Shown: piece by piece, positions 30,274 to 47,907 of the stretch
Numbering within the stretch: position 1 is the stretch's first letter
Layout of the letters: each line of letters begins with the position of its first letter
Assembly (NCBI GenBank): GCA_963837465.1
Contig: CAWINB010000001.1
Location: forward strand, 297,036 to 361,035
From: Candidatus Doudnabacteria bacterium
Lineage (GTDB): Bacteria > Patescibacteriota > Doudnabacteria > UBA920
Direction of reading: 5' to 3'
DNA: 64,000 nucleotides
Made by a program: the position numbers and the translations under genes
Notes under the pieces: generated by a model
The model's database searches: none
Told to the model about the DNA's origin: nothing
What the model saw: the letters and a program-made list of their open reading frames with translations, nothing else

Positions 30274-30504
30274 CTATTTGGGGGGCTTGCTCTTGCGGCG
30301 GGCCGCCCAGTATTTTTTCATTCTCGCCGAGACTTCCTCGCGCTCAGCGGAGCTCATGGACTTTCGTCCACGGCGCTTTTCGCTTTTCGGCTTCGGCGGC
30401 ATGCCGCCGCCCGCCGCGCGTTGCAAGCCCTCAAGGGCGGCAATAACGCGCTCTATTTTTTCTTTTTCGGCGTATAAGTCCTGAATCGCTTTATATAGAT
30501 TCAT
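30274..30504 (-). CDS. Hypothetical small basic protein (76 aa)
   Basis: Lys/Arg-rich C-terminus; ORF only. Confidence 0.35.
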   Translation of the reverse strand: MNLYKAIQDLYAEKEKIERVIAALEGLQRAAGGGMPPKPKSEKRRGRKSMSSAEREEVSARMKKYWAARRKSKPPK

Positions 30505-32570: not shown

Positions 32571-34808
32571 CTATCTGTCAAAATTCCTTCTCGGGGGTCT
32601 GGAGCCGCTGTGGCCGCCGGAAGATGGACGGCGGGGAGGACCGTCGAAGCCGCGGTCATTGGCCGAGGCGAGTTGCTCGGGGGTTGGGGCCGAGGCAAAA
32701 GGTTTGTGGGTTAGGTTAATGCGGCCTTGGTCGTCTATTTCACTGACCTGGACTTTTAAAGTGTCGCCAATATGGACTACATCTTCCACTTTGTTGACGC
32801 GGTAGTTGGCCAGTTGGGAAATGTGGACCAGGCCGTCTTTGCCGGGCAGGACTTCCACAAACGCGCCAAAATCCATAATGCGCACGACTTTGCCTTCGTA
32901 AATTTCACCGGGCTCAACTTCGCGCACAATATCCTGAATCCACTTCACGGCCTTGGCCGAACTTTCGGCATCGGTGGAAGTAACCATCACCAAGCCGTCG
33001 TCTTCTATATCTATTTTCACGCCAGGACATTTGGCTATAATTTCATTGATAATTTTGCCGCCGCTGCCAATAACTTCGCGGATTTTATCCGGCTTAATCT
33101 TAAAGCTGGTAATGCGCGGCGCGTACGGGGAGAGTTCATGGCGCGGCGCGGCCAGGGTTTCTGTCATTTTGGAAAGGATGTGGACGCGCGCCGGTTTGGC
33201 CTGCTGCAGAGCTTTGTCCAAAATATCCGCGCTCAAACCTTTAACTTTCATGTCCAGCTGCAAAGCGGTAACGCCCTGGTCTGAACCGGTAACTTTAAAA
33301 TCCATATGGCCGTTAAAATCTTCTATACCGGCAATGTCGGTAAGCACTTTAAAGTTGGAAGGGTTGGTTTCATCCATAACCAAACCCATGGCGCAGCCGC
33401 CGATAATGTGTTTAATGGGAACTCCCGCGTCCATTAAAGCCAAAGTTGAGCCGCAGGTGGATGCCATGGAGGTGGAACCGTTGGACGAAAGCACTTCACT
33501 GACCAGGCGCATAGTGTAAGGAAAAGATTCCTGGTCGGGCAGCACCACTTCCACGGCGCGTTCGGCCAGCATGCCGTGGCCGATTTCGCGGCGGCCGGCG
33601 CCTCTTAAAGGCGCGACTTCGCCAACGGAATAGCCGGGCATATTGTAGTGGTGGATATAGCGCTTGGCGCGACCGTCAGCCGGGTCTTCCATGCCATCTA
33701 ACAACTGTTCGTCACCTTTACTGCCAAGAGTAACTGTAGTTAAAGCCTGGGTTTCGCCGCGGGTAAACAAAGCGCTGCCGTGGGTGCGCGGCAAAATGCC
33801 GACTTCGCAGGAAATAGGACGCGTCTCAGTAAGCGAACGTCCGTCTACCCGGCGTTCGTGCTCCAGAATCTGCTTCTGCTGGTATTTTTTTAAAACTTTA
33901 TCCACAGCCCCGGCCGCTTCCTTGGCAACATCCACGCCCTGAATTTCCCCCAACGCCAAAACCGCGGCGTCGGAAATTTCTTTGGTCAGAACGCTGACGT
34001 TTATATCGCGCTGGGCTTTTATCTTAACGTAAACCGCCGCTTCAATTTTATCGGCCGTTAAAAGTTCCTTGACTTTGGCCATAACGGCATCGTGCGGCTT
34101 TATAATTACAGGCTCGGCTTTGGGAATGTTGATTTGCTTGGCAAACTCAATTTGCGTTTTTACCAGAACATCCAGATATTGCTGGGCGAATTTTATGCCT
34201 TCCACGATTTCCGCTTCCGTAACCAGCATGGCGCCCATTTCAACCATAATAATGTGGTCGCCGGTGCCGCAGACGATTAAATCCATAGTGGATGCTACCT
34301 GCCGCTCGCGCGTGGGGTTTACCACATATTGTCCGTCTATTTTCCCCACCCGCACGCCGGCAACCGGGCCGTCGTAGGGAATTCTGGAAATGGCAAGGGC
34401 CATGGAAGCCGCGGTGACGGATAAAATGTCCGGCTCGTTGACGCCGTCGTAAGAAAGGATGGTGGCGATAATCTGCACGTCGTTGCGCATGCCGTCGGGA
34501 AACATGGGCCGAAGCGTGCGGTCTATAACCCGTCCTTTTAAGACGGCATCATCGGTAGCGCGGCCTTCGCGCTTGACCCAGCGCGAGCCTTTTATTTTTC
34601 CGGCCGCGTAGAGTTTTTCTTCGTAATCAACCAGCAGCGGGAAATAATCTATGTTGCTTCTCACGCCTTTGCTCATCATGGCCGTGGCCAGAACCACGGT
34701 ATCGCCCACGCGCGCCAAAACCGCGCCGTCGGCCTGCCCGGCCAGCTTGCCGGTCTCAAACACAAAATCGGCTTCGCCTATTTTGCACGAAATCTTTTTA
34801 CTTTCCAT
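32571..34808 (-). CDS. pnp: Polyribonucleotide nucleotidyltransferase (PNPase)
   Basis: Two RNase PH domains, KH, S1, RG-rich tail; 745 aa. Confidence 0.95.
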
Positions 34809-34896
34809 TTATTATCCCTTTTGTTCCGGGATGATGCGTGTGTTGACGATGACTTTCAAAAAGCCGTCGCTGTACCCACCCACCATCTTTTGGAAC

Positions 34897-35295
34897 TTAA
34901 TTATTACGTTTTTCCAAAACTTCCTTAATTTTAGCTAATATATCGTCCGGTGTAAAGTAGGCTTTGACCATGTATTCGTCGGCCCTAAGGGACTGCGTCC
35001 TTAAAATATCCTTGTTGCTCCAAAGATTGCTCAGGACAATAACCGGCAGGTCGGAAATTTTTTTGTCCGGATTATCGCGGATTTTTTCCAAAACTTCGAA
35101 ACCGTCCACTTCGGGCATCATTAAGTCCAGTAAAATTATGTCCGGCAGCTCCTGGAACACCATTTCCAGGCCCTGTTTGCCGTCCGGGGCATGGCGGACG
35201 ACAAAACCGGCGGCTTGCAGCTTATGCGCCACAATATCGGCCATAGCCGCGTCATCCTCCATAATAATTACATTTTTGTTTGTTTGTTTAAGCAT
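34897..35295 (-). CDS. Single-domain response regulator (CheY-like receiver)
   Basis: ...IIMEDD...DIILLDLMMPEVDGFEVLEKIR...; the phospho-acceptor Asp is the first D of LLDLMMP. Confidence 0.8.
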   Translation of the reverse strand: MLKQTNKNVIIMEDDAAMADIVAHKLQAAGFVVRHAPDGKQGLEMVFQELPDIILLDLMMPEVDGFEVLEKIRDNPDKKISDLPVIVLSNLWSNKDILRTQSLRADEYMVKAYFTPDDILAKIKEVLEKRNN

Positions 35296-35423
35296 TATTT
35301 TTAACTAACCAGCCAATATTATAGCATAAATTGGTAAAATATGGAAAATGTGATATAATTCTGGCTACAATAAGAAAAAATTAAAATTACTTGCGGAAAT
35401 TAAAATTAACATAAAAAATCAAA

Positions 35424-37994
35424 GTGGGAGAAGTAACTAGTTTTGCCAAAAATTTAGCGGAATTTGATAATCATAAAGAAGTTATCCGCCTGGAAAATGA
35501 AGGCTTGGGCGTTGTCGGATTTATCGCCATCCACACCCTTAAAAATTCTTATCCTTCTTTGGGCGCGACCAGGGTCTGGAATTATAAAACGGAAACCGAG
35601 GCGCTTAGTGACGCTTTGAGGCTTTCGCGGCTGATGTCCAACAAATCCCTTTACGCGGACTTGCCTTACGGAGGAGCAAAAGCGGCTCTAATGGTTTCCA
35701 AAGACAACCCTCCCGACCGCGAAGAACTTTTTTCCTGGTACGCGGGTGAGATAAATAAATTAGACGGGAGGTTTATTACCGGTTCCGATGTGGGAATTCA
35801 GGAACAAGACGTGGTTTTAATGAGCGGCCTGAGCAAATTTGTTATAGGAGGCAATGTCCCCGCCGGATACTATACCGCTCTTGGCGTGTTAAATGGCATT
35901 GAAACCGCCCTGGAAATTATTTACGGTTCGCCGGAAATTTCCGGAAAAACTTTCGCGGTGCAGGGTCTGGGAAAAACGGGACTGGAATTAGTCAAGCTGC
36001 TTTACGGCAAAGGCGGAAAAATTACAGTCACGGACGCTGACTCTAAAAAAATTGCCCAGGTTCTGGAAATGTTTCCCGGCGTTTCGGCCGTGAATGTTTA
36101 CGGCATATACAGCCAGAAAGTTGATATCTTCTGTCCTTGCGCCCTCCACAACAGCATTGATTCCCTAAGCGCGCCGCTGTTGCGGTGCGCCGCCATTGTC
36201 GGCAGCGCGAACAATCAAATGGAAAGCCCTGAGGTTGAACTATTGGTGCGTAATCGGGGAATTTTATACGCCATAGACTACATTGTAAACAACGGCGGCT
36301 TTATTAGCGTGGTAGACCAATATCAAAACGGAACCCATGACGATGCCCGGATAAAACAAAAGCTGCTGATAGTAAAAAATAAATTAAAAAAAATATTAAC
36401 CGGGGAAGAGCCCAAACCAAGCCCCGCCGCGACGACCGATGGTTCCGGAGTTTCCGTGTCCGGCGATACCGCGTTGTTCCCAAAAAAAACCCTTCCTGGC
36501 GACATTGCGGAACTTATTGGTTCTTTTAAAACTCAAAAGGAAGCTGTTTGGATTGAGCGCGGGGAAAGGCAAGCGCTAAAATTATTCGGCGAAATGTCCA
36601 GGCGGGTACCGGCTTACCGGGATTTCCTTAAAAAAAACGGGGTGAACGCGGAAACTGTAAACAGCATCGACGATTTTAAACATCTGCCGCTGACCAATAA
36701 GGAAAATTACCTGCTTTCGTACCCGTTGGAAAGCTTATGCTGGGACGGCAAATTCAAAGGGCAAAAGTGGACCATCTCATCCACATCCGGCTCAACCGGC
36801 GAACCTTTTTATTTCCCCAGAACCGGTTTTCAGGATGAGCAATTCGGACTTACGGCCGGGGCCTGCTTGGTCGATTTTTTCGAAATTGACAAAAAAACCA
36901 CCCTTTTTCTGGATTGCTTTGCCTTAGGAGTCTGGATTGGAGGAGTATTTATGTACCAGGCAATAAAGTATTTAATTGACCAAGGACGTTATCCCCTTTC
37001 TGTTATTACCCCGGGCGCGGACAAAGCCGAAGCCATAAAAGCTATAAAAAATTTGGCGCCGAAATTCGACCAGATAATTATAGGCGGCTACGCTCCGTTG
37101 GTTAAAGATTTAATAGATGTGGGCGGGGCCCAGGGCCTAAGGTGGAACGATTACAGCGTAAAATATTTTTTCGCGGCCGAAGGCTTCACCGAAGGCTACC
37201 GCGACTATATTGTAAAAAACGGCGGGGCGAAAAATATTTTTACCGATACCATTAACCACTACGGCACAGCTGACTTGGGGACAATGGCGCACGAAACCCC
37301 GGTAAGCATTTTAATCAGGCGCCTGGCCGCGGCCGACCAAAATCTGGCCCAGGCTTTATTTTCCCAGACCCACAAACAACCCACTTTAACCCAGTACATT
37401 CCGGAGCTTTATTATTTTGAACAGGCGGACAACCGGGTAGTCTGCTCATCTTCCGGGGGAATGCCGTTAATAAGGTATGATTTAAAAGACCGCGGCGGGG
37501 TTAAAAAACTGGAGCAAATTAAGCAAATTCTTAAAGAGCGAAATATTGACATCGAGCGGGAAATAAAAAAATCCGGTTTGGAAAAATTTTTATGGCAATT
37601 GCCTTTTGTCTATCTTTTTGAAAGGGATGATCTTACCGCCAGCATCTACAGCGTAAACATTTATCCCCAAAGCATCCGCAAAGTTCTGGAAAAGCGGGAA
37701 TTTGAAAAATTTTTGACAGGTAAATTCAGTATGCTGGTGGACTATGACCAGGGACAGAACCAGTTCCTGCAAATTAACCTGGAGTTGAAGAGCAATGTTG
37801 ATTCCGGGGAAGGTCTGGAAAAAAACCTTCTTGGCTCCGTTGTGGATCAGCTGCTTTTGGAAAATTCGGAGTGGAGGGATTTTTACGCCGACCAGGGCAT
37901 ACGCCATAAAATAATACCCCAATTGCTGTTTTGGCCCTATCAGGACCCTAAATATTTTAAGCCGGGCGCGAAACAAAAATGGGTGAAAAAATAA
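35424..37994 (+). CDS. Fusion protein: Glu/Leu/Phe/Val-type amino-acid dehydrogenase (N-terminal ~330 aa) plus PaaK/F390-synthetase-like adenylate-forming enzyme (C-terminal ~500 aa)
   Basis: N-terminal LPYGGAKAAL (dehydrogenase lysine motif) and Rossmann VQGLGKTG; C-terminal PaaK-family TSGSTGEP P-loop with the characteristic N-terminal VPAYRDFL...DFKHLPLTNKENY; GTG start. Confidence 0.7.
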   Translation: MGEVTSFAKNLAEFDNHKEVIRLENEGLGVVGFIAIHTLKNSYPSLGATRVWNYKTETEALSDALRLSRLMSNKSLYADLPYGGAKAALMVSKDNPPDREELFSWYAGEINKLDGRFITGSDVGIQEQDVVLMSGLSKFVIGGNVPAGYYTALGVLNGIETALEIIYGSPEISGKTFAVQGLGKTGLELVKLLYGKGGKITVTDADSKKIAQVLEMFPGVSAVNVYGIYSQKVDIFCPCALHNSIDSLSAPLLRCAAIVGSANNQMESPEVELLVRNRGILYAIDYIVNNGGFISVVDQYQNGTHDDARIKQKLLIVKNKLKKILTGEEPKPSPAATTDGSGVSVSGDTALFPKKTLPGDIAELIGSFKTQKEAVWIERGERQALKLFGEMSRRVPAYRDFLKKNGVNAETVNSIDDFKHLPLTNKENYLLSYPLESLCWDGKFKGQKWTISSTSGSTGEPFYFPRTGFQDEQFGLTAGACLVDFFEIDKKTTLFLDCFALGVWIGGVFMYQAIKYLIDQGRYPLSVITPGADKAEAIKAIKNLAPKFDQIIIGGYAPLVKDLIDVGGAQGLRWNDYSVKYFFAAEGFTEGYRDYIVKNGGAKNIFTDTINHYGTADLGTMAHETPVSILIRRLAAADQNLAQALFSQTHKQPTLTQYIPELYYFEQADNRVVCSSSGGMPLIRYDLKDRGGVKKLEQIKQILKERNIDIEREIKKSGLEKFLWQLPFVYLFERDDLTASIYSVNIYPQSIRKVLEKREFEKFLTGKFSMLVDYDQGQNQFLQINLELKSNVDSGEGLEKNLLGSVVDQLLLENSEWRDFYADQGIRHKIIPQLLFWPYQDPKYFKPGAKQKWVKK

Positions 37995-39145
37995 CAACTA
38001 TGCGAGAAACTTTCAACAGCCAATCTTGGCAACCTGTAAAAAAAACTTTTGAAGAAACAAGCGACTTGATAAAAAACGAGCCCGGTGTTTTTGTGACCGA
38101 CCAGTATAAAAAAAATTTGGAAGAACTTTTTTTGCTTCGCAACCCCAAGTACCGGTTCAACAAAAACTACGCGGAGGATTTTAAAAAGTTCGCGGGGCGG
38201 CAATTTGGAGATGAGCCGGATAAGGCCGGAACCTGGTTTTACTATCCCTGGTCAAAGCGTTTAGTCCGCTTTTTGCCTGATGACACGCACCAGGAACTGC
38301 GCACCGGCAGGAACCGCAACTTAATCACCCAGGAGGAGCAAAAAAACTACTACAACTCAAAAATTGCCGTTTTGGGTATGAGCGTTGGCAGCCATGTGGC
38401 CGCTACAATCGCGATGATTGGCGGTTCAAAAAATATGAAGCTGGCGGATCCGGACAGTTATTCCGGGGACAACCTCAACAGAGTGCGCACGGGGTTTGGG
38501 GATGTCGGTTTAAAAAAAGCAGTGGTCGTCGCCAGAAAATTATTTGAAGTTGACCCCTACGCCAACCACAGTATTTACACGGAAGGGCTTAATGAAAACA
38601 ACGCGGAAGAAATTCTCGAGCACAGCGAAATTATAATAGAGGAAATGGACAATCTCTACTGGAAACTTAAAATCCGGGAACTGGCGCGCGCCAGGGGAAT
38701 TCCCGTAATAATGGGTACCGACAACGGGGACGGTATGATAGTTGATATTGAACGCTTTGACCTTGATAAATCTTATCCCATCCTCCATGGCAGTATCGGA
38801 GATTTAACCGCGGAAAAATGCAAACAGGTTGCTCCGGAAGACCTGCCGGCAGTTTACGCCAAAGTCGCGGGCGCCGAACTGGCTGTTCCCCGGATGCTGG
38901 AATCGGTCGCCCAAGTCGGCAAGACGCTTTATTCCTGGCCCCAGCTGGGCACGGCGGCCAACCTTTGCGGCACAGTCGTGGCCTATCTGACGCGGCGGAT
39001 AATATTAAAGTCTCCCAATATTAAATCGGGGCGCTATGAAGTAAATTTGGACTCCATTTTTGAATCGGACTATAATTCCCCCCAAACAGCCCGGACTCGC
39101 GAGGAACAAAAAAACAATTTTTTAAAGGAAATCGGTTTTAAATAA
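37979..39145 (+). CDS. E1-like (ThiF/MoeB/MccB-family) adenylyltransferase with ~110-aa N-terminal extension
   Basis: IAVLGMSVGSHVAATIAMIGG...LADPDSYSGDNLNR (Rossmann plus ThiF motif); the N-terminal extension resembles a peptide-clamp or RRE-type add-on. Confidence 0.65.
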   Translation: MGEKITTMRETFNSQSWQPVKKTFEETSDLIKNEPGVFVTDQYKKNLEELFLLRNPKYRFNKNYAEDFKKFAGRQFGDEPDKAGTWFYYPWSKRLVRFLPDDTHQELRTGRNRNLITQEEQKNYYNSKIAVLGMSVGSHVAATIAMIGGSKNMKLADPDSYSGDNLNRVRTGFGDVGLKKAVVVARKLFEVDPYANHSIYTEGLNENNAEEILEHSEIIIEEMDNLYWKLKIRELARARGIPVIMGTDNGDGMIVDIERFDLDKSYPILHGSIGDLTAEKCKQVAPEDLPAVYAKVAGAELAVPRMLESVAQVGKTLYSWPQLGTAANLCGTVVAYLTRRIILKSPNIKSGRYEVNLDSIFESDYNSPQTARTREEQKNNFLKEIGFK

Positions 39146-39151
39146 AAAGTT

Positions 39152-40174
39152 ATGAAACAAAATTATCAGGCGTGGGAAATTAATCCCGGCGACTTCCAGA
39201 AACAAAAAACCATTACGGACCAATTGTGGTTTTTGGCCGGCTTTGCGGTGCTGGCCCCGTCCGGGCACAACAGCCAACCGTGGCAATTTGACGCGCGCGA
39301 TAACATAATAGATATCCGCGCGGATATGTCCCGGGCTCTGCCGGCCAGCGACCCCAATTGCCGCCAGCTTTATATCAGCCTTGGTTGCGCCATGGAAAAT
39401 TTGTTGATTGCCGCGGAAGGTTATCGGTTTCACTATGATATAGCTTATTTCCCCAAAGATGGGGTTGCCGCCAGTATAACTTTTTCAGGAAGCGGCGAGC
39501 AGGGGGTTATTGAACCCAAAAGCGATATAATTGCCGTGACAAAACGCCATACCAACCGCAATCCCTATACCACTAAAATGCCCGAGCAAACTTTTTTACA
39601 AAAAATAAAAAGCCTGGGAACCGGCAATGTACAGATAACTCTGGTCAGCCAACAAACACAGAGAGAAAAAATTTCCGACATTGTGAGCGAAGCTTTAATT
39701 ACGACTATGGACAATAAAAGTTTCCGTATGGAGCTTTCGCGTTATCTTAAGCCAAATAACACCAACTCCCCCATTGGTATGACCGGAGCAGGCTTTTTAA
39801 TGCCGACCGCGGTTTCTTTTATCGCGCCCGTGCTGATAAAATTTGTAAATGTCAATAAATTAAGTAAAAAAGAAGATGTCGCTTTGCTTAAAGAACATAC
39901 GCCTGTTTTTGGTGTTATTTCCACCTTGGCGGACGAACCAAAAGCCTGGCTAAAAGCAGGCCAACTGTACGAACGCGTTGCTGTTGAGGCGGAAAAAGGA
40001 AATATCAAAACCCATCCTTTGGCCGCGGCTATTGAAACCGGAAAATACTGCGGGCAATTACAAAATGCTTTGGAAATTCCTTCCCGCCCCCAGGTTTTTT
40101 TTAGATTGGGATATACCGATAAACTTGTTCCATATGCCCCAAGATTACCAATCAGTAAATGCAGGGTTATATGA
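39152..40174 (+). CDS. Tandem nitroreductase-fold FMN oxidoreductase (SagB/McbC/Acg-like), 340 aa
   Basis: LAPSGHNSQPWQF nitroreductase signature in the N-terminal half; second degenerate half. Confidence 0.6.
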   Translation: MKQNYQAWEINPGDFQKQKTITDQLWFLAGFAVLAPSGHNSQPWQFDARDNIIDIRADMSRALPASDPNCRQLYISLGCAMENLLIAAEGYRFHYDIAYFPKDGVAASITFSGSGEQGVIEPKSDIIAVTKRHTNRNPYTTKMPEQTFLQKIKSLGTGNVQITLVSQQTQREKISDIVSEALITTMDNKSFRMELSRYLKPNNTNSPIGMTGAGFLMPTAVSFIAPVLIKFVNVNKLSKKEDVALLKEHTPVFGVISTLADEPKAWLKAGQLYERVAVEAEKGNIKTHPLAAAIETGKYCGQLQNALEIPSRPQVFFRLGYTDKLVPYAPRLPISKCRVI

Positions 40175-41040
40175 ATAAAGAGGATAATTTAGCCAAATCG
40201 CTTGGGCTGCCCGTACACATTGGGCAAATGCCTATTAACGGCCATACTATAAATTACTGCGTTGCCGGAAAAGGGCCGCCCATCTTACTTATTCACGGTG
40301 CCAATTTCGGCTGGGGAGTTTGGTATCCCAATATCGCCGAATTAGCCAAGCGCTTTACTGTTTACGCCATAGATTTGCCCGGCGCGGGACGCTCAACCCG
40401 AATTGACTATGCCAAAATGGATCCGGAAAAAGATTTATTAGTTGTTGTGGAAAAATTTGTTGATAATTTAGAGCTTCAAAATTTTGATATAATAGGCTGC
40501 TCAATCGGCGGTTGGATAGCTTTACAGCTGGCATTAAGGAAACCTGACAGGGTTAATAGAATAATAATCGAAAATGGAGTCGGGTTTGCCGATTTTATGG
40601 GTATTTCCGATAAAATAATCGGCTTTTACCCTTTGGCAAAATTAGTTTCCAAAACTCTGATAAACCCGGCAAACAAAAAAAGGGTGGAAAAATTTTTGCG
40701 CGGAACTTTTTATTATAAGAACCTGTCCTTATCGAAAGAATTCCTCGAATATTTTTTGGAAACAATGGAAACCTCTCACGGGCTTCTGCTGATTAGCCGT
40801 TTAACTTCACTGCATAGCCAATTAAATCTAGAAAAAAAACTTCCTATTATTACTCACAAAACTTTAGTCATTTGGGGGAGAGACGATAAAATTATGCCTT
40901 TAAAAAAAAATGCGCGTAATTTTAAATTACTGTCCAAAGCGACAATCAAGATAATCAGCAATACGGGCCACACCCCTTCGTTGGAAAATCCTCAAGAATT
41001 TAACAGGCTTGTTAATGATTTTTTAGTTAATTATGAATAG
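40159..41040 (+). CDS. Alpha/beta-fold hydrolase
   Basis: PILLIHGANFGWGVW... nucleophile elbow GCSIGGW; 293 aa. Confidence 0.7.
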   Translation: MQGYMNKEDNLAKSLGLPVHIGQMPINGHTINYCVAGKGPPILLIHGANFGWGVWYPNIAELAKRFTVYAIDLPGAGRSTRIDYAKMDPEKDLLVVVEKFVDNLELQNFDIIGCSIGGWIALQLALRKPDRVNRIIIENGVGFADFMGISDKIIGFYPLAKLVSKTLINPANKKRVEKFLRGTFYYKNLSLSKEFLEYFLETMETSHGLLLISRLTSLHSQLNLEKKLPIITHKTLVIWGRDDKIMPLKKNARNFKLLSKATIKIISNTGHTPSLENPQEFNRLVNDFLVNYE

Positions 41041-42688
41041 CATTATCTCAAACTTTACCCAACTCCTGCTCATTATAGTATTGGTTATCAATATCCTATT
41101 GGCTTTTATCGTGTACAGAAGCAACAGGCATAGCGCCACCAATATTATTTTTATACTTCTTAGTATTGTTATTTCAATATGGCTGGTAATTATAAATGAA
41201 GCCGCGATACTATCATCCCCATTAATAATTTTGGTTTATACCAGGTTTGCCGTATTTTTTGCGGTACCTTTAAGTGTCTTATTTTTCCTTCTCGCCCATA
41301 CGCTCCCCAGCCCCACGCTATTATTAAGCAAAAAACGTTTACGATGGTTGCTGATTGGCACTCTTTTAATGATGGCATTTACCTTGTCGCCTTACGTTTT
41401 TAAAGCCGTAGAAATACAGGGCCAAAACATAAAAAGTATCCCTGGAGCAGGAATACCTTTCTTCGCCATTTTTACAAGCTTTTTCAGTTTGGCTGCTATT
41501 TATGTCCTGGTAAAAAAAGTTAAAAATTCCACTGGCGAAGTCAAACAACAAACGGCATTAATGATGCGGGGCATCCTGTTAATGCTGGGCCTGATTATTA
41601 CCACAATAATGCTTCCGGTTATTTTCTTTCAGAATCAGGCATTTATTCCTTTATCACCTGCCTATGTACTTATTTTTCTAGGAATGACAGCTTATGCCGT
41701 TGTTAAAAATCATCTATTCAACCTAAAGGTCATTGCTACTGAGGCATTCACCTTGGTTTTATTGACCGTTCTGTTCTCACAGATGATTATTGTCGCCACA
41801 ATCGGACAAAAAATTCTGGATTTTTTTGTTTTCATTATCACCGCTATTTTCGCCGGATTACTTATCCAGAGCGTCAAGCGTGAAATACAGCAGCGTGAAC
41901 AGTTGGAAATCTTGACCGGGCAATTGGAGGATGCCAATTACAAGCTTAAAAATCTGGACCAGGCCAGGGCCGAGTTTATTACCATTGCTTCGCATCAGTT
42001 GCGCACGCCTCCGGCTACCATTAAGTGGTATCTGGCTTCCATTTTGGGTGGCGATTACGGAAAGGTCCCGGCAAAAATACTGGAGCAATTGATAAAAACC
42101 GAAAACACCAACAACCACCAGATTTCCCTTATTGAAGATATGCTGAACGTTTCGCGCATTGAACGGGGCAAAATGGAATTTTTATTTGAACCGGTTAACG
42201 TGGAAGAACTGGCGCGTTTTTCCTACGAACAACTTTTGCCCATTGCCGGGGACAAAAAACTTAAACTGAGCTATCAGCCGCCGGCAAAACCGCTGCCGGA
42301 AATTATGGCCGACAAAGAAAAACTCCGGCAGGTTATGAATAATTTAATAGACAACGCCCTGAAATACACCAGAAAAGGCACCGTGGACGTTAGCCTGTTT
42401 TTAGAAGGCGATGAAATAAAATTCCAGGTCAAAGACAGCGGCAAGGGCATAAGCAAACAAGACGCCGACTCTATTTTCCAAAAATACAGCCGCGGCAAGG
42501 AATCGGTCAAGCAAAGCGCCGGCCTTGGCCTTGGGCTTTACGTGGCCAAAATTATTATTGACCAGCATAAAGGAAAAATTTGGGCCGAAAGCCGGGGGGA
42601 AGGCCAGGGTTCCATATTCGCTTTCAGCCTGCCTGTTAACAGCGGGCTTAAACAAACCACGCTGGTAGATTTGTCAAAAACGAATTAA
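41033..42688 (+). CDS. Membrane sensor histidine kinase
   Basis: About 7 N-terminal transmembrane helices; HisKA ASHQLRTPPATI; HATPase_c N/G boxes (LIDNALKYT, GLGLGLYVAK). Confidence 0.85.
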   Translation: MNSIISNFTQLLLIIVLVINILLAFIVYRSNRHSATNIIFILLSIVISIWLVIINEAAILSSPLIILVYTRFAVFFAVPLSVLFFLLAHTLPSPTLLLSKKRLRWLLIGTLLMMAFTLSPYVFKAVEIQGQNIKSIPGAGIPFFAIFTSFFSLAAIYVLVKKVKNSTGEVKQQTALMMRGILLMLGLIITTIMLPVIFFQNQAFIPLSPAYVLIFLGMTAYAVVKNHLFNLKVIATEAFTLVLLTVLFSQMIIVATIGQKILDFFVFIITAIFAGLLIQSVKREIQQREQLEILTGQLEDANYKLKNLDQARAEFITIASHQLRTPPATIKWYLASILGGDYGKVPAKILEQLIKTENTNNHQISLIEDMLNVSRIERGKMEFLFEPVNVEELARFSYEQLLPIAGDKKLKLSYQPPAKPLPEIMADKEKLRQVMNNLIDNALKYTRKGTVDVSLFLEGDEIKFQVKDSGKGISKQDADSIFQKYSRGKESVKQSAGLGLGLYVAKIIIDQHKGKIWAESRGEGQGSIFAFSLPVNSGLKQTTLVDLSKTN

Positions 42689-43174: not shown

Positions 43175-43447
43175 CTATTCGGTAATTTTAAGCTTAAGCT
43201 TTTCTGCCAGCTTTTCGTAACGCTTCTGGTCTTCGCTCTTTAGATAGCGCAGCAGGCGGCGGCGGTTGCCGACCATCTTAAGCAAGCCGCGGCGGCTGTG
43301 GTTGTCTTTGCGGTGGATTTTTAAGTGCTCGCTGACCTGTTCGATTTCCCTGGTCAAAATGGCAATCTGAACCTCCGGACTGCCGGTATCGTCTTTATGC
43401 GTCTGAAACTTTTTAATTATATTGTTCTTCTCTTTGGGAGTAAGCAT
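43175..43447 (-). CDS. rpsO: 30S ribosomal protein S15
   Basis: [35 protein letters not shown]...[17 protein letters not shown]. Confidence 0.95.
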
Positions 43448-43624: not shown

Positions 43625-46171
43625 TTAGTAGCGTGTATTGCTTGCCAACTTCTCCTGCATAGTCTTTAAATCACTTTGCAGTTGTTGCCAACGTTGATAA
43701 ACTTGGGCTTGCGGTTCTGTCAGCTGTTGATCGCGCAAGACCTGTAGCTCTGCCCGTAAATTTTCTAAAAATTGGTCGACGTTTTGGCTTTTTGACATTA
43801 TTTCCAATTGCCGCGAGTCAAACCGCAGACCGTTTTTGACTTTTTCGGCAAGCAAAGTTGCCAATTCCCCGACTCTATCCAAGTCCGCTTTTGCTTGGTC
43901 TTGTTTTTGAACTTTAGCATCCCAAGCATTTAAGTCCATTTCCATAGCGGCCACATCTTTACGGGCCTGGGCTATTTTTCCAGTTAAGTCAACTCTGATT
44001 TTCCTGCTTTCAAAATCGCTTATTTTTTTATTTAAAGCATCGCGCCGTTGTATTAAATCGCTTCTTGAGAGATACTTTTGTTTAAAACCCTCTATTGGCT
44101 GTTCGCCGCTGTCTCTTTGGGGTTGATAGCCCTCTATGGCACGGGTGGCGTTTGTATAATTTTCCCGGGCCATCGCATCTTCAATATAAATTTGGCTGGA
44201 ATTTGTACCGGCGCTGTCGTAAATCCTGATTGTCGCGGCGTGATTGGCAACGCGAGCCAAACTTCTTTCGATATCGCTCATACTGCCAAAACTGCGGGCC
44301 ACTTCATTATTGGCCTTAACCTGTCGGGCTTGCCGGAGCAAGTCTCGTGTCCGGGGTCCGTTTTCCAAACTACGCAAGTCGAGTTTGGCCCAGCCAGCGT
44401 CCATTCCCACACCAACTTTTTCCAAAACTTGTTGGGTTTTTGTCTGAGCATCCATTACCGCTCGGTTAATAATCCCTCTGACATTGCTTAAATGACCGGC
44501 TTTGGCAAAAACCTGGTAAACAGATCTTGGCATTGTCAGGTATTGATTATCTATGTAAGAAGGTTCCAAATGCCGCTGCCGCATTTCCGCCGGGATATGG
44601 GCATTAATCTGGCCAATAGCGACATAGTTTCGACTACCTGACAAAAAAGCTTTTTTATCTGGAACCTCTTCTAAAGCCTGATAAAAAGCATTGAGCAGCG
44701 CCTGCCACGCTTCCAGCTGCTGCTTAACGTAGCCAGGCTGGATTATGTCTGTCTTTATTGGTTGGCTTTCGATCCCCCTATCTGAATAAGAAATTTTTTC
44801 CATCCCAAAAGCTGTGACTCCGCCCCAACTATTTTCCACGCCTTGCGAAATAACGTCAAACTTGCCGACTATGCCAGTATTATCCAATGACTGATGGGCT
44901 CCGCGGTTCGCGAACATATCGCGGGCACTTGCCACACCCATTTCCCGCCCCACATTATCTAAAAGGTCATTCAAATTTCGGCTAAACAGGGGAGGACCCG
45001 CTTGCTGCGAATACTGATCTTGAAAATTTTCAGTCCACTTTTTATCAGTTTCATGAATTTTATCTATAACTCCACTGAGTTGCGATCTTAGCTTTCGCTC
45101 CAAATCTTCCTCGGCTTTTTTTGCCGCTTTTACCTGGTTGCGACCGGGTTCAAAAACCGTATCAAAATACCGGATTTGATCTTTTACTTCCTGTAAATTC
45201 ACAACTCCAAGCCTGGCAGCTTCCCTTTCTTCGTATTCGCCGCTTATCTTATTTCCCAAAGCTTCCAAAAACGACTTTTTTACTTCGGCTCGTCCAATAA
45301 CTTTTTCGCCTTCCAAAACATTGTGGGACAAAAAATCCACACGCCCCAATGAAGCGAAATTTATAACTTCATTTTTGTAAGAACGCCATAAATGTTCTGT
45401 ATCCTGACTCACAAGCTTTTTAGCTGCCGCCTGCCTTTTGCCTTCGGTGGAATTGGGAAAAAGCTCTTCGTACTGTTTACGAAAAGCCGCCTGTCTAGCT
45501 TCCAAAGCGGAAATTAAAGTATCAAAGGTTATTGCCCGCCTGCCACTTGGAGTTTCAGGAATATCCGCCCCCGCTCTGGCGGCAACGGCGGCATCCGCCT
45601 TAGTCCTGGGTCCACCGTGGTCAAGGTTGTGCCGTTTTGGGACGCGAGGCTGTTCTTGTCCGGGCTCGCCGCTGGGATGGGCTTTTAAAAATTCCAAAGC
45701 CTGATGCTTGGACCCTAAACCTTTTTCTGTTTGAGGATTCAGCTCTGCGGCGCTTTCGGCCATTCCCTTTTCCGCCTCCAAGTAAGCCTGGGCTTCTTCA
45801 CCTTGGGGAAGCTTCGCGACCAGACTTTCTACGGAACTAATACCCTGCTCACTTAAAAATTGTTCAGGGTCTAAGCCGACATCTCTTAAGATACGCTTAA
45901 AAGCGGAATCCGGACTATTTAGTTGTTCTTTCAGAATTCTTTCATGGTCAGCAAAGCTGGTTTTGTGTCCGCGGCGTTTTTGCAGGATTCGTTTTTTTGC
46001 TTCGCGTACTTCCCGTAACCCTTCTACAATTTCCCCTACCTTTATGATGCTCGATTTTAGCTCGTCAATCCTTTGGTCTGCCTGTTCCTGAACAGACCTT
46101 TCTTTTTCCTCTGTAGCAACATTGGCGCGTTCCCGGGCCATCGCGGCTAAACGTTGTTCTATTGAACCCAT
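43625..46171 (-). CDS. Large coiled-coil-rich hypothetical protein (848 aa)
   Basis: Long Glu/Lys/Arg-rich heptad-like segments; no enzymatic motif recognised. Confidence 0.5.
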   Translation of the reverse strand: MGSIEQRLAAMARERANVATEEKERSVQEQADQRIDELKSSIIKVGEIVEGLREVREAKKRILQKRRGHKTSFADHERILKEQLNSPDSAFKRILRDVGLDPEQFLSEQGISSVESLVAKLPQGEEAQAYLEAEKGMAESAAELNPQTEKGLGSKHQALEFLKAHPSGEPGQEQPRVPKRHNLDHGGPRTKADAAVAARAGADIPETPSGRRAITFDTLISALEARQAAFRKQYEELFPNSTEGKRQAAAKKLVSQDTEHLWRSYKNEVINFASLGRVDFLSHNVLEGEKVIGRAEVKKSFLEALGNKISGEYEEREAARLGVVNLQEVKDQIRYFDTVFEPGRNQVKAAKKAEEDLERKLRSQLSGVIDKIHETDKKWTENFQDQYSQQAGPPLFSRNLNDLLDNVGREMGVASARDMFANRGAHQSLDNTGIVGKFDVISQGVENSWGGVTAFGMEKISYSDRGIESQPIKTDIIQPGYVKQQLEAWQALLNAFYQALEEVPDKKAFLSGSRNYVAIGQINAHIPAEMRQRHLEPSYIDNQYLTMPRSVYQVFAKAGHLSNVRGIINRAVMDAQTKTQQVLEKVGVGMDAGWAKLDLRSLENGPRTRDLLRQARQVKANNEVARSFGSMSDIERSLARVANHAATIRIYDSAGTNSSQIYIEDAMARENYTNATRAIEGYQPQRDSGEQPIEGFKQKYLSRSDLIQRRDALNKKISDFESRKIRVDLTGKIAQARKDVAAMEMDLNAWDAKVQKQDQAKADLDRVGELATLLAEKVKNGLRFDSRQLEIMSKSQNVDQFLENLRAELQVLRDQQLTEPQAQVYQRWQQLQSDLKTMQEKLASNTRY

Positions 46172-46353: not shown

Positions 46354-47907
46354 TTATAGTTGCGTACCGGTAGTATAGCCGGAGATGTCCGCGGCTATGA
46401 CATTGCTTAAGCTGTAGCCCAGGGAGCTGAATATTGTTATAGAGGAAAACGGCAACTTTTGGCCGTCGGAAATAATGTAGGTTACGCCGTTTTGCGAAAC
46501 CAGGGTGCCGTCCCTGAATTTGACCAAAGAACCCGCTGGCAAAGCCATATCCGCGGCATTGGCAGGAACTACGCGGTCAAAGGTAAAACCATAACTGGTA
46601 AACACGGTTAAGGATTCAAAACCATCTCTCTGTCCGTCTAAAATCCACCACACAGTGCCGCTGTTGTCTCTGACCAAGGCGCCTTCCGGATGCGCGTCGG
46701 CAGCGGAAGTAATAGGCGTACCGGACGGATAATCGCTCAGGTTAATTTTGAACAAGCCGCTAATTGGCGCGGGGGAAGTACTGGAGCCTTTAACATAACC
46801 CAATCCCTGGAAAACCGCGTAAGAACTAAAGCCGCGCTTGGTGTAATTTTGACCGACCATATATACGGTACGATTATCGGATGTGTCGAGCGCCAAGGTG
46901 CCAACCATGGCTTTCATAATATCACCTTGCGGCAAAAGCTTGTCCGCGTCGCTTATGGGTACATCCTGGCTGAATTTATAGCCATAGGAAGCAAACTCCT
47001 GCGGATCGCGGAAGCCGTGCAACTGTCCGCCGGCAATTAAGTAAACCGTGCCGCCATCAAGCACCAAGGTCCCGTCGGGATGAGTTCCCCTGATGGTATT
47101 AAGACCCAAAACTTGACCTCGCGGGTTGTTGCCAAAATTTAAATTGCTGGCAGAGGTTGATGTGCTGGTTAGTGTTATCGTGTAAGCGTGATTGTCGGAG
47201 GAAGCAGACGGCTGGGTCTGGCCCCAGGGGGTGCTGGTGCTGTTTTGCAATACTTCGCGCACCGTGTAAGAACCAAGAGGAACGTTAAAAGAATAGTTGC
47301 CGCTGGAATTGCTAAGAGTGGATGTTTCCCCGCTATCTAAGCTGTCGTTGTTGTTGCTGTCCAAATAAACTGTCCAGCCGGGTAAGACATTATCCGTAGT
47401 AGTACTATAAAGCCCTGTGTCATTGTTATCTGAATAAACCAAACCGGAAATTGTACCGCTGGTTACTCCCCCGCCGCCGCCGCCGGATGAGCCGCTGCTG
47501 CTTCCCCCGGATGATCCGCCGCCGTTACCGCCCGGAGTATTAATAACATAAGCAAAGCTGGCTACGGTTGAAGAAGCGTTATTGGCGTAGCAGGATACGG
47601 CTTGTATGGTTTCGGATGATGCTACTGAAATAGCCGAAGTATAAAGCGTGCCGGTGCCGCAACCGGGAACAGTAACGCCGTCCGTGGTGTAATAAATAGC
47701 CGTGGTCGCGTTGTCACCGGTAAGCGCCACGCTTTGGGCGGAGCTATAAGTTCCGGCCGCCGGAGTGGCCACGGGCGGACTGGTTACCACCACCTGCGGG
47801 CCGCTGGATAAACCGGTAGACAGGGTTCCGGAAACAACGGACGCCCGAGCCGTAAATCCCGCGCCAAATCCCAAAACTATCAGCAAAGAACAAATATAAA
47901 TTTTCAT
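46354..47907 (-). CDS. Secreted surface protein with Gly/Ser linker and SdrD-B/Cna-B-like domain
   Basis: Signal peptide MKIYICSLLIVLGFGAGFTARA; GGGSSGGSSSGSSGGGGGG; LDSNNNDSLDSGE. Confidence 0.6.
   Translation of the reverse strand: MKIYICSLLIVLGFGAGFTARASVVSGTLSTGLSSGPQVVVTSPPVATPAAGTYSSAQSVALTGDNATTAIYYTTDGVTVPGCGTGTLYTSAISVASSETIQAVSCYANNASSTVASFAYVINTPGGNGGGSSGGSSSGSSGGGGGGVTSGTISGLVYSDNNDTGLYSTTTDNVLPGWTVYLDSNNNDSLDSGETSTLSNSSGNYSFNVPLGSYTVREVLQNSTSTPWGQTQPSASSDNHAYTITLTSTSTSASNLNFGNNPRGQVLGLNTIRGTHPDGTLVLDGGTVYLIAGGQLHGFRDPQEFASYGYKFSQDVPISDADKLLPQGDIMKAMVGTLALDTSDNRTVYMVGQNYTKRGFSSYAVFQGLGYVKGSSTSPAPISGLFKINLSDYPSGTPITSAADAHPEGALVRDNSGTVWWILDGQRDGFESLTVFTSYGFTFDRVVPANAADMALPAGSLVKFRDGTLVSQNGVTYIISDGQKLPFSSITIFSSLGYSLSNVIAADISGYTTGTQL

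What the first reader, a model, noticed from the sequence alone, without database searches (positions are those of the whole stretch)
35424..37994. Unusual single-polypeptide fusion of an amino-acid dehydrogenase with a PaaK-like adenylate-forming enzyme
Residues ~1-330 carry the Glu/Leu/Phe/Val dehydrogenase hallmarks: lysine motif LPYGGAKAAL and Rossmann VQGLGKTG. Residues ~360-856 carry the PaaK/coenzyme-F390-synthetase family hallmarks: TSGSTGEP P-loop and the N-terminal VPAYRDFL...LPLTNKENY segment. A covalent link suggests channelling between amino-acid to 2-oxo-acid interconversion and carboxylate adenylation, for example Phe/Leu to an aryl or alkyl acid adenylate. I do not recall such a fusion as a described family. 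It is the first gene of the rpsO-pnp island operon.
Basis: partly seen in the sequence, partly recalled or inferred. Interest (0 to 1): 0.75.

Follow-up and report, generated by a model that had tools for sequence, protein, structure and literature searches.

The report
Dehydrogenase–ligase fusion in oxazolone-like cassette
The fused amino-acid dehydrogenase / PaaK-like ligase gene is real, and it is one arrangement of a widespread, apparently undescribed gene cassette in ultrasmall (Patescibacteria/CPR) bacteria that looks like a new route to oxazolone-type small molecules and almost always sits next to a membrane sensor kinase.

Summary
Window 35424-37994 (+) is one intact 856-aa ORF. Its N-half is a Leu/Phe/Trp-type ELFV dehydrogenase with all catalytic residues. 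Its C-half is a PaaK-fold ANL adenylating enzyme with all adenylation motifs. The fusion is not an artefact: the junction is a novel disordered linker, an independent assembly gives the same 856-aa protein, and three other lineages carry DH~ligase fusions.

The fusion is rare, but it belongs to a conserved Patescibacteria cassette found in at least 298 species genomes. In 50 loci with enough flank the counts were PaaK-like ligase 50, Rv1355c/TrzS-type ThiF cyclase 50, 7TM histidine kinase 48, nitroreductase-fold flavin oxidase 40, dehydrogenase 35 and alpha/beta hydrolase 17. Neighbouring genes are fused in many combinations. A class I/II aminotransferase flanked 9 of 16 dehydrogenase-less cassettes and 0 of 40 with one.

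ThiF plus flavin oxidase is the characterised oxazolone synthetase pair (OxzB, TyzBC, TrzS), but the usual N-acyltransferase is missing. Best reading, inferred: the dehydrogenase makes a 2-oxo acid; the ligase joins it to an amino acid without CoA; ThiF and the oxidase form an oxazolone or N-acyl-dehydroamino acid; the adjacent kinase may sense it. I rate this a new variant of a known kind.

The parts
35331..35359 (+). Promoter-like site (TTGGTA-17-TATAAT with upstream TG) in the 128-bp divergent intergenic region before the fusion gene
   Evidence: Consensus scan only, 10/12 match with an extended -10. It is not evidence of function.
35424..36425 (+). Fusion gene, N-terminal domain (aa 1-~334): Leu/Phe/Trp-type ELFV amino-acid dehydrogenase
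   Evidence: Pfam PF02812 and PF00208 pass gathering. PDB LeuDH 1e-53 and TrpDH 5e-52. K74, K86, D122, GxGxxG, D204 and N263 are invariant in 123 clade members. The pocket is Gly120 plus Leu/Ile/Phe293, the Phe/Trp-DH state. pLDDT is above 90.
36426..36473 (+). Disordered core (aa 335-350, pLDDT <50) of the inter-domain linker; the full novel segment is aa ~326-352, TGEEPKPSPAATTDGSGVSVSGDTALF
   Evidence: pLDDT below 50 for residues 335-350. The linker has no counterpart in the unfused relative L090, where it replaces the last ~28 aa of the free dehydrogenase.
36474..37994 (+). Fusion gene, C-terminal domain (aa ~351-856): PaaK-fold ANL adenylate-forming enzyme of a Patescibacteria-specific family ('PaaKL')
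37979..39145 (+). ThiF/E1-like ATP-dependent cyclase candidate, TrzS (Rv1355c) N-half type
   Evidence: NCBIfam NF005901 'Rv1355c family' scores 300.8 bits over model positions 22-354 of 722, against no more than 57 bits for generic ThiF models. The RNR, GxGxxG, D.D..NLNR and EEMDN motifs are present.
39152..40174 (+). Nitroreductase-superfamily flavin-dependent oxidase (FDO), Acg/Rv3131 type
   Evidence: NF047509 scores 222 bits, above its cut-off of 199. It aligns over its full length with Acg 2ymv.
40159..41040 (+). Alpha/beta-fold hydrolase; candidate azlactone-opening or transfer enzyme (inference)
   Evidence: Pfam Abhydrolase_1 97 bits. The nearest NCBIfam models are C-C hydrolases and enol-lactonases (HsaD, BphD, PcaD). 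It is fused to ThiF or to NR in other loci.
41033..42688 (+). Membrane histidine kinase with an N-terminal 7TM sensor region
   Evidence: Pfam HisKA_7TM, HisKA and HATPase_c. A related kinase is adjacent in 48 of 50 loci.
34897..35295 (-). Stand-alone receiver-domain response regulator, divergent from the cassette and directly upstream of pnp
   Evidence: Pfam Response_reg 76.5 bits. A receiver gene lies near the cassette in 27 of 50 loci.

Best explanation
The gene encodes a genuine bifunctional protein: an NAD-type amino-acid dehydrogenase with a pocket for bulky or aromatic substrates, tethered by a flexible linker to a PaaK-fold adenylating ligase. It is the first gene of a five-gene operon (fusion, ThiF-like cyclase, flavin oxidase, alpha/beta hydrolase, 7TM histidine kinase). 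That operon is one arrangement of a cassette conserved across Patescibacteria. Proposed mechanism, with status of each step: (1) The dehydrogenase, or an aminotransferase in genomes lacking it, converts an L-amino acid to its 2-oxo acid. The family, the intact active site and the dehydrogenase/aminotransferase substitution are shown; the direction and the substrate are inferred. (2) The ligase adenylates a carboxylate, most simply that 2-oxo acid, and passes it to the amino group of an amino acid without CoA. It thereby replaces the acyl-CoA-dependent N-acyltransferase of known oxazolone pathways. The adenylating fold and motifs are shown; the acceptor is inferred. (3) The TrzS-type ThiF adenylates the N-acyl-amino-acid carboxylate and cyclises it to an oxazol-5(4H)-one, and the flavin oxidase desaturates C-alpha/C-beta. 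This is by homology to characterised OxzB, TyzBC and TrzS. (4) Where present, the hydrolase opens or transfers the azlactone. This is inferred. (5) The product is sensed by, or its synthesis is controlled by, the co-encoded 7TM kinase and receiver. This rests on adjacency only.
Against: No biochemistry exists for any member of this cassette. Neither the ligase's substrate nor its acceptor (amine, CoA or other) can be read from sequence. The dehydrogenase is absent from about 30% of cassettes and the oxidase from about 20%, so neither is obligatory. The flavin oxidase needs O2 in the characterised systems, whereas many Patescibacteria live in anoxic habitats. The structure model gives no fixed inter-domain interface (pTM 0.68), so only proximity coupling is supported. 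The link to the kinase rests on adjacency alone. The window's NR is Acg-like (FDO-B) rather than the FDO-A type of the characterised oxazolone enzymes (PMC10404671).
Confidence: 0.5

Rival explanations
1. The C-half is a true CoA ligase that converts the dehydrogenase's 2-oxo acid, or an aryl/alkyl acid derived from it, into an acyl-CoA. An unidentified acyltransferase or other enzyme then uses that thioester.
For: The best sequence and structure matches are CoA ligases: PaaK, BT_0428 and 2-hydroxyisobutyryl-CoA ligase. All ANL motifs, including the C-terminal lysine, are present.
Against: No acyltransferase or other CoA-dependent gene is conserved in the cassette. Equivalog scores are far below cut-off (30.6 against 646). 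The family has a ~21-residue insertion beside the hinge relative to PaaK. CoA-independent PaaK-family ligases also rank among the closest folds. From general knowledge, not tested here, Patescibacteria largely lack fatty-acid and CoA metabolism.
Confidence: 0.15
2. The cassette makes a six-membered or dipeptide-type product rather than an oxazolone. The ligase joins two amino-acid-derived units. The ThiF cyclises through N-attack to give a diketopiperazine, pyrazinone or morpholinedione. The nitroreductase-fold oxidase then acts like a cyclic-dipeptide oxidase.
For: The same genomic evidence supports this as supports the main model. Nitroreductase-fold C-alpha/C-beta dehydrogenation of cyclic dipeptides is known from albonoursin AlbA (my own knowledge, not tested here).
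Against: The ThiF proteins match the TrzS/Rv1355c oxazolone-synthetase family specifically. No characterised ThiF of this clade makes six-membered rings (PMC12596934).
Confidence: 0.15
3. The system modifies a peptide or protein, in the manner of a RiPP or an E1. The ThiF adenylates a peptide or protein C-terminus as MccB and PaaA do, the ligase acylates it, and the kinase or regulator could even be the target.
For: The ThiF has a ~110-aa N-terminal extension, and most characterised ThiF-like enzymes act on macromolecules (PMC12596934).
Against: No conserved small ORF lies in or within 1.5 kb of the cassettes, and the cassettes are tightly packed. The N-terminal extension is itself part of the Rv1355c family model, since the hit starts at model position 22, and TrzS acts on a small molecule (PMC12856293).
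Confidence: 0.05
4. The fusion is an assembly or sequencing artefact that merges two adjacent genes.
For: In close relatives the two genes are separate and overlap by 4 bp, so a frameshift could in principle fuse them.
Against: The junction is a ~27-aa novel in-frame linker that replaces the dehydrogenase C-terminus, and the other frames are full of stops. An independent assembly gives the same junction. P0241 is recorded under four accessions from separate MAGs, and P0030 comes from two assemblies.
Confidence: 0.02

Closest known systems
Oxazolone (azlactone) biosynthesis: OxzAB (Pseudoalteromonas rubra), TyzACB and TrzAS (= Rv1356c/Rv1355c) of Mycobacterium tuberculosis
   Same: A ThiF-like ATP-dependent cyclase of the Rv1355c family is paired with, or in six related loci fused to, a nitroreductase-superfamily flavin oxidase. 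In the known systems this pair cyclises and desaturates N-acyl aromatic amino acids. The cassette dehydrogenase has an aromatic-type pocket.
   Different: There is no OxzA/TyzA/TrzA-type N-acyltransferase. Instead there is an invariably present PaaK-fold ligase, usually a dedicated amino-acid dehydrogenase or aminotransferase, often an alpha/beta hydrolase, and almost always a 7TM histidine kinase. The host phylum (Patescibacteria) is not mentioned in any of the papers read. The window's oxidase is Acg-like (FDO-B) rather than FDO-A.
Leucine / phenylalanine / tryptophan dehydrogenases (ELFV family; LeuDH 3vpx/1leh, PheDH 1c1d, TrpDH/ScyB 5b37)
   Same: The alignment is full length, the catalytic Lys/Lys/Asp are present, and so are the NAD Rossmann motif and the acidic residue after beta-2.
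   Different: It is not an equivalog of ScyB (218 bits against a cut-off of 600). It forms a cassette-specific Patescibacteria clade. In the window the C-terminal ~28 residues are replaced by a linker to a second enzyme.
PaaK-family ANL ligases: PaaK1/2, BT_0428; the CoA-independent members NatL2/BomJ and ClxA of benzoxazole pathways; EhpF
   Different: Identity is only about 16-20%. The protein is about 80 residues longer, with an extra two-helix insertion next to the hinge. It fails the PaaK, F390-synthetase and FlxY equivalog cut-offs by a wide margin. Its substrate is unknown.
Signal-synthase/receptor operons (e.g. agrBDCA, comQXPA)
   Same: Biosynthetic genes for a small product are encoded in one operon with a membrane histidine kinase, with a receiver gene nearby.
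   Different: There is no homology to those systems. No evidence shows that the product is exported or sensed, and the response regulator here is a receiver domain only.

Membership tests
ELFV (Glu/Leu/Phe/Val) amino-acid dehydrogenase superfamily | N-terminal dimerisation/substrate domain (PF02812) plus NAD(P)-binding domain (PF00208), both above Pfam gathering score | tested here: met
   39.2 bits (cut-off 25.3) and 52.9 bits (cut-off 23.4).
ELFV (Glu/Leu/Phe/Val) amino-acid dehydrogenase superfamily | Catalytic Lys (LeuDH K80), carboxylate-binding Lys (K68), Asp (D115) and the GxGxxG dinucleotide motif | tested here: met
   K86, K74, D122 and G181-G186 align to LeuDH and TrpDH. All are invariant in 123 clade members.
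Tryptophan dehydrogenase ScyB (NF035922 equivalog) | Score at or above the curated cut-off of 600 bits | tested here: not met
   218 bits. It is related but not an orthologue.
ELFV dehydrogenase | NAD(P)+-dependent oxidative deamination activity and its substrate range | not testable with these tools
   Only pocket residues could be read: Gly120 and Leu/Phe293 are in the Phe/Trp-DH state.
ANL superfamily, PaaK-like subfamily | Two-domain PaaK-type fold | tested here: met
ANL superfamily, PaaK-like subfamily | Adenylation core motifs: P-loop (T)SGSTG, YGxx(D/E), ribose-binding Asp, hinge R-x-D, C-terminal catalytic Lys | tested here: met
   S110-G114, Y268/G269/D272/G274, Y340/D344/G346, E388/R389/D391 and K505 (C-half numbering) are invariant in 32 diverse members.
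Phenylacetate-CoA ligase PaaK (TIGR02155) / coenzyme F390 synthetase (TIGR03335) | Score at or above the curated equivalog cut-off | tested here: not met
   30.6 bits against 646.3, and 25.4 bits against 458.7.
Phenylacetate-CoA ligase PaaK | Thioester formation with CoA | not testable with these tools
CoA-independent PaaK-family members exist (PMC7204872, PMC9400959).
Oxazolone synthetase system (OxzAB / TyzACB / TrzAS) | ThiF-like cyclase of the TrzS/Rv1355c clade with an intact ATP site | tested here: met
   NF005901 scores 300.8 bits over the N-half of the model; the full-length cut-off of 476 cannot be reached by a split protein. Five other cassette ThiFs score 215-327 bits. The nucleotide motifs and the 'DN' Asp are present.
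Oxazolone synthetase system (OxzAB / TyzACB / TrzAS) | Adjacent or fused nitroreductase-superfamily flavin-dependent oxidase | tested here: met
   NF047509 scores 222 bits, above its cut-off of 199. The genes are adjacent with a 6-nt gap. ThiF~NR fusions occur in 6 related loci.
Oxazolone synthetase system (OxzAB / TyzACB / TrzAS) | Adjacent N-acyl amino acid synthase / acyltransferase (OxzA, TyzA, TrzA) | tested here: not met
   No such gene appears in the window operon, in the 9 loci with Pfam annotation, or among the conserved extra ORFs of 87 loci.
Oxazolone synthetase system (OxzAB / TyzACB / TrzAS) | Oxazolone product formed from an N-acyl amino acid | not testable with these tools
   This needs heterologous expression with LC-MS.
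RiPP / E1-like peptide-modifying ThiF systems (MccB, PaaA) | Co-encoded precursor peptide or ubiquitin-like substrate | tested here: not met
   No conserved small ORF lies in or within 1.5 kb of the cassettes.

The most novel reading that the evidence does not exclude
Patescibacteria make an oxazolone-type (or N-acyl-dehydroamino-acid) small molecule from amino acids by a CoA-independent route, and the co-encoded 7TM histidine kinase is its receptor. That would be a self-produced chemical signal in ultrasmall episymbiotic bacteria and the first receptor, and so the first physiological role, assigned to bacterial oxazolones.
Probability: 0.2. Interest if true: 0.85.

Novelty: new variant of a known kind. 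Interest (0 to 1): 0.66.

Why it matters
There are three reasons.

1. Oxazolone biosynthesis was discovered only in 2020-2025, and its authors call the physiological role of oxazolones 'a major unresolved question' (PMC12856293). A cassette in which the cyclase/oxidase pair is hard-wired to a sensor kinase in 48 of 50 loci gives a directly testable signalling hypothesis.

2. Patescibacteria are regarded as biosynthetically minimal. A conserved multi-enzyme small-molecule pathway present across many of their classes, and absent from the papers searched, would add to the little known about how these episymbionts communicate or regulate themselves.

3. The PaaK-like family is large: free-standing homologues fill nearly all of the top 150 library hits, and at least 298 species genomes carry one. 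It is entirely uncharacterised and is a candidate ATP-dependent, CoA-free N-acyl-amino-acid ligase. The natural fusions (DH~ligase, ligase~ThiF, ThiF~oxidase) offer ready-made multi-step biocatalysts.

Tried and rejected
- **Sequencing or assembly artefact.** Rejected from the junction anatomy and an independent assembly.
- **My first reading that the 'rpsO-pnp' statement was wrong.** Partly withdrawn. pnp and rpsO are both on the minus strand and flank the + strand cassette, so 'island between rpsO and pnp' is accurate. Co-transcription with them is not.
- **Precursor peptide (RiPP).** I clustered all unassigned ORFs of 25 aa or more in and around 87 cassettes. The only recurrent families were receiver domains, an aminotransferase, bactofilin, a DAGK-like protein, TrmB and antisense ORFs.
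- **A defined inter-domain channel.** Full-length AF2 gives no confident interface.
- **Literature on Patescibacteria** (PMC10633639, PMC11665869). Neither mentions ThiF, histidine kinases, quorum sensing or nitroreductases. The 'HisKA_7TM' search returned only two papers on archaeal and eukaryotic two-component systems, which I did not read.
- **afdb50 fold search.** The library was unavailable.
- **Homology search with the ThiF partner.** It returned only generically annotated Patescibacteria proteins and no named oxazolone enzymes. The link to TrzS therefore rests on the NCBIfam Rv1355c model.
Full report
**1. The observation**

Window 35424..37994 (+) is a single uninterrupted ORF of 856 aa with a GTG start. 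The N-half (aa 1 to ~334) passes the Pfam gathering scores for both ELFV dehydrogenase domains. It aligns end to end with solved leucine and tryptophan dehydrogenases: 3vpx at 1e-53, 5b37 at 5e-52 and 1leh at 2e-45.

**2. Is the fusion real?**

The closest unfused relative, L090, is 76% identical in the ligase and 62% identical in the dehydrogenase. There the two genes are separate and overlap by 4 bp. In the window the last ~28 residues of the free-standing dehydrogenase are replaced by a novel Pro/Ser/Gly/Thr-rich segment (TGEEPKPSPAATTDGSGVSVSGDTALF). That segment runs in frame into residue 4 of the ligase, and the other two frames are full of stop codons. A single-base error could not produce this.

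An independent read-set assembly (Logan) encodes the same 856-aa protein with one substitution (D307N) and an identical junction. DH~ligase fusions also occur in three other lineages at only 37-41% identity:
- P0017, 878 aa, Paceibacteria.
- P0241, 847 aa, recorded under four accessions from separate Parcubacteria MAGs.
- P0030, 1242 aa, which also carries the ThiF domain and was seen in two assemblies.

Among 1.84 billion representative proteins these were the only long dehydrogenase-containing hits in the top 150. The fusion is real, recurrent and rare. Close relatives at 76-80% identity are unfused, so the window's fusion is evolutionarily young.

**3. Are both halves competent?**

In an alignment of 123 members of this dehydrogenase clade, several positions are invariant or nearly so:
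- the catalytic Lys (K86, equivalent to LeuDH K80);
- the carboxylate-binding Lys (K74, equivalent to K68);
- Asp122 (equivalent to D115);
- the GxGxxG motif;
- the acidic residue after beta-2 (D204, which suggests NAD);
- Asn263.

The specificity positions are in the Phe/Trp-dehydrogenase state. Gly120 is invariant where LeuDH has Ala113. Position 293 is Leu, Ile or Phe where LeuDH has Val291. The loop reads L/F-G-A-T-R, as in TrpDH (M-G-A-T-R). The mapping of these positions to PheDH G124 and L307 is from my own knowledge of the literature. This points to bulky or aromatic substrates but does not fix one.

In the ligase family the P-loop SGSTG, YG..D.G, RYdlkD.G, the hinge E-R-x-D and a C-terminal Lys (K505 in C-half numbering, K850 in the fusion, within KPGGKQKW) are invariant across 32 diverse members.

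The full-length model has two well-folded domains (pLDDT above 90). The linker is disordered (residues 335-350, pLDDT below 50), and pTM is only 0.68. This describes two rigid enzymes on a flexible tether. It supports proximity coupling, not a structured channel.

**4. Context: a conserved cassette**

The fusion is the first of five tightly packed + strand genes, with gaps or overlaps of 16 nt or less:
- fusion;
- ThiF-like protein (37979-39145);
- nitroreductase-fold protein (39152-40174);
- alpha/beta hydrolase (40159-41040);
- 7TM histidine kinase (41033-42688).

A divergent stand-alone receiver gene sits upstream (34897-35295, -). The block lies between rpsO (43175-43447, -) and RR-pnp (-).

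Homologues of the ligase half are a large family of free-standing ~505-aa proteins found only in Patescibacteria-type genomes. A pattern scan of one genome per GTDB species found 298 genomes with a relative. I tallied neighbours in the 80 fetched loci plus 9 from other look-ups. In 50 loci with enough flank the counts were ligase 50, ThiF 50, histidine kinase 48, nitroreductase-fold protein 40, dehydrogenase 35, receiver 27 and hydrolase 17.

The commonest gene order is DH-ligase-ThiF-NR-HK. The dehydrogenase gene is immediately upstream of the ligase gene in 49 of 55 loci, and ligase followed by ThiF is the most frequent adjacent pair, with 61 cases. Neighbouring genes are fused in many combinations:
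- DH~ligase;
- DH~ligase~ThiF;
- ligase~ThiF and ThiF~ligase;
- ThiF~NR (6 loci);
- ThiF~ABH (2 loci);
- NR~ABH (2 loci);
- DH~NR.

This is a classical 'Rosetta stone' pattern for one pathway.

**5. The dehydrogenase step**

A divergently transcribed class I/II aminotransferase (Pfam PF00155, 207 bits) flanks 15 cassettes, and all 15 lack the dehydrogenase. Among loci with enough upstream sequence it is present in 9 of 16 dehydrogenase-less cassettes and 0 of 40 with a dehydrogenase (Fisher p = 1.5e-6). Two unrelated enzymes sharing only the amino-acid/2-oxo-acid interconversion thus replace each other. This is the strongest evidence that this interconversion is the step the pathway needs.

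**6. What the partners are**

The ThiF-like protein scores 300.8 bits on NCBIfam NF005901 ('Rv1355c family') over the N-terminal half of that model, against no more than 57 bits for generic ThiF/MoeB models. Five ThiFs from other cassette variants behave the same way, at 215-327 bits. The nucleotide-binding motifs and the 'DN' aspartate are present.

The nitroreductase-fold protein passes the cut-off of the Acg/Rv3131 FMN-oxidoreductase model (222 bits against 199) and aligns over its full length with Acg 2ymv. Other cassettes carry the Rv1355c-C-half type instead.

Rv1355c is TrzS. This ThiF-cyclase/flavin-oxidase fusion converts N-acyl-tryptophan into N-acyl tryptazolone (PMC12856293). OxzB and TyzB/TyzC do the same for N-acyl Tyr/Phe (bioRxiv 10.1101/2020.06.11.147165; PMC10404671). 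The Acg-type proteins belong to the same 'FDO' subgroup of the nitroreductase superfamily (PMC10404671).

In all characterised systems the substrate is supplied by an acyl-CoA- or ACP-dependent N-acyltransferase (OxzA, TyzA, TrzA, NasY; PMC12479983). No such gene is present in the window operon, in nine Pfam-annotated loci, or among the conserved extra ORFs.

**7. Proposed mechanism**

The PaaK-like ligase is invariably present, sits between the 2-oxo-acid-forming step and the ThiF in gene order, and is fused to both neighbours. The most economical reading is that it supplies the N-acyl amino acid. It would adenylate a carboxylate, most simply the 2-oxo acid made by the dehydrogenase or aminotransferase, and transfer it directly to the amino group of an amino acid.

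Relative to PaaK, the family has a ~21-residue two-helix insertion between the ribose-binding Asp motif and the hinge. The position recalls the hinge insertion that blocks CoA chemistry in fatty-acyl-AMP ligases. I did not test this.

ThiF and the oxidase would then give a 4-alkylidene or 4-arylidene oxazolone. The hydrolase's nearest models include enol-lactonases and C-C hydrolases, so it could open or transfer the azlactone. That would be consistent with the N-acyl-dehydrotyrosines found where NAS+ThiF+NR clusters occur (PMC12479983).

All chemical steps are inferred. Only families, motifs, folds and genomic linkage are shown.

**8. The kinase**

A histidine kinase lies next to the enzymes in 48 of 50 loci, in the orders tallied immediately downstream of the last enzyme gene. 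It carries a HisKA_7TM sensor region in 8 of the 9 Pfam-annotated loci and in the window. A receiver gene is nearby in about half.

The authors of the oxazolone papers speculate that oxazolones are signals and call their role unresolved (PMC12856293; bioRxiv 10.1101/2020.06.11.147165). The hard-wired kinase here makes that idea testable. Adjacency alone cannot tell whether the product is sensed or whether the kinase merely regulates the operon.

**9. Rivals**

- *True CoA ligase.* This cannot be excluded from sequence, but it leaves the N-acylation step without an enzyme.
- *Six-membered (diketopiperazine or pyrazinone) product.* This is chemically plausible, but the specific TrzS-family membership of the ThiF argues against it.
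- *Peptide or protein modification.* No conserved substrate ORF exists, which makes this unlikely.
- *Artefact.* Excluded.

**10. Novelty and verdict**

The papers on oxazolone biosynthesis and the review of ThiF-like enzymes that I searched for these terms (PMC12856293, PMC12596934) mention neither Patescibacteria nor PaaK-like ligases, and the review mentions neither amino-acid dehydrogenases nor histidine kinases. Two Patescibacteria overviews do not mention ThiF, histidine kinases or quorum sensing, and the one I also searched for nitroreductases (PMC10633639) does not mention them either. Database names for these proteins are generic: 'phenylacetate--CoA ligase family', 'ThiF family', 'leucine dehydrogenase' and 'hypothetical'.

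I therefore rate this a new variant of a known kind: the oxazolone / N-acyl-amino-acid pathway with a different, CoA-independent front end and a dedicated sensor.

Noticed in passing
Related loci L039, L040, L042, L043, L048, L055, L063, L070, L074-L077, L079, L086, L087 (divergent gene just upstream of the cassette): A class I/II aminotransferase occurs only in cassettes that lack the ELFV dehydrogenase: all 15 loci carrying it are dehydrogenase-less, and among loci with enough flank it is 9 of 16 against 0 of 40. This looks like a non-orthologous replacement.
   Followed up: yes
L007:10780-11841, L009:3928-5010 versus window 39152-40174, L004:6977-7990, L006:6959-7984: The cassette flavin oxidases come in two types: Acg/Rv3131-like, and PRK14851/Rv1355c-C-half-like. 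The two types are mixed with two ThiF sub-types across loci.
   Followed up: partly
window ~37470-37600 (fusion aa ~692-727; C-half residues 347-382): There is an insertion of about 21 residues forming two helices, between the ribose-binding Asp motif and the hinge, relative to PaaK. It sits where fatty-acyl-AMP ligases carry the insertion that blocks CoA chemistry.
   Followed up: no
window 32571-35295 (-) and 43175-43447 (-): rpsO and pnp, usually adjacent, are separated by the + strand cassette. A stand-alone receiver-domain gene sits directly upstream of pnp on the same strand. rpsO also lies just beyond the cassette in L004 and L005.
   Followed up: partly
window 47941-53247 (-), 46354-47907 (-), 43625-46171 (-): There is a 1768-aa protein with many 'VVDTTPPVI'-type repeats and a signal-like N-terminus, in a region of raised GC (0.51 against about 0.44). 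Next to it are a 517-aa Gly/Ser-rich secreted-type protein and an 848-aa coiled-coil protein.
   Followed up: no
L001:14306-15590 and 11-13 other related loci, downstream of the histidine kinase: A bactofilin gene and a DAGK_cat-like (lipid kinase) gene recur immediately after the cassette kinase in 12-14 loci. They are absent from the window.
   Followed up: no
L009:5011-5772: A 253-aa gene with no Pfam assignment occupies the position between the oxidase and the kinase where other cassettes have the alpha/beta hydrolase.
   Followed up: partly
window 30274-30504 (-): A 76-aa, highly basic small ORF lies between the glycyl-tRNA-synthetase-like gene and the tgt-like gene. I did not examine it.
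   Followed up: no
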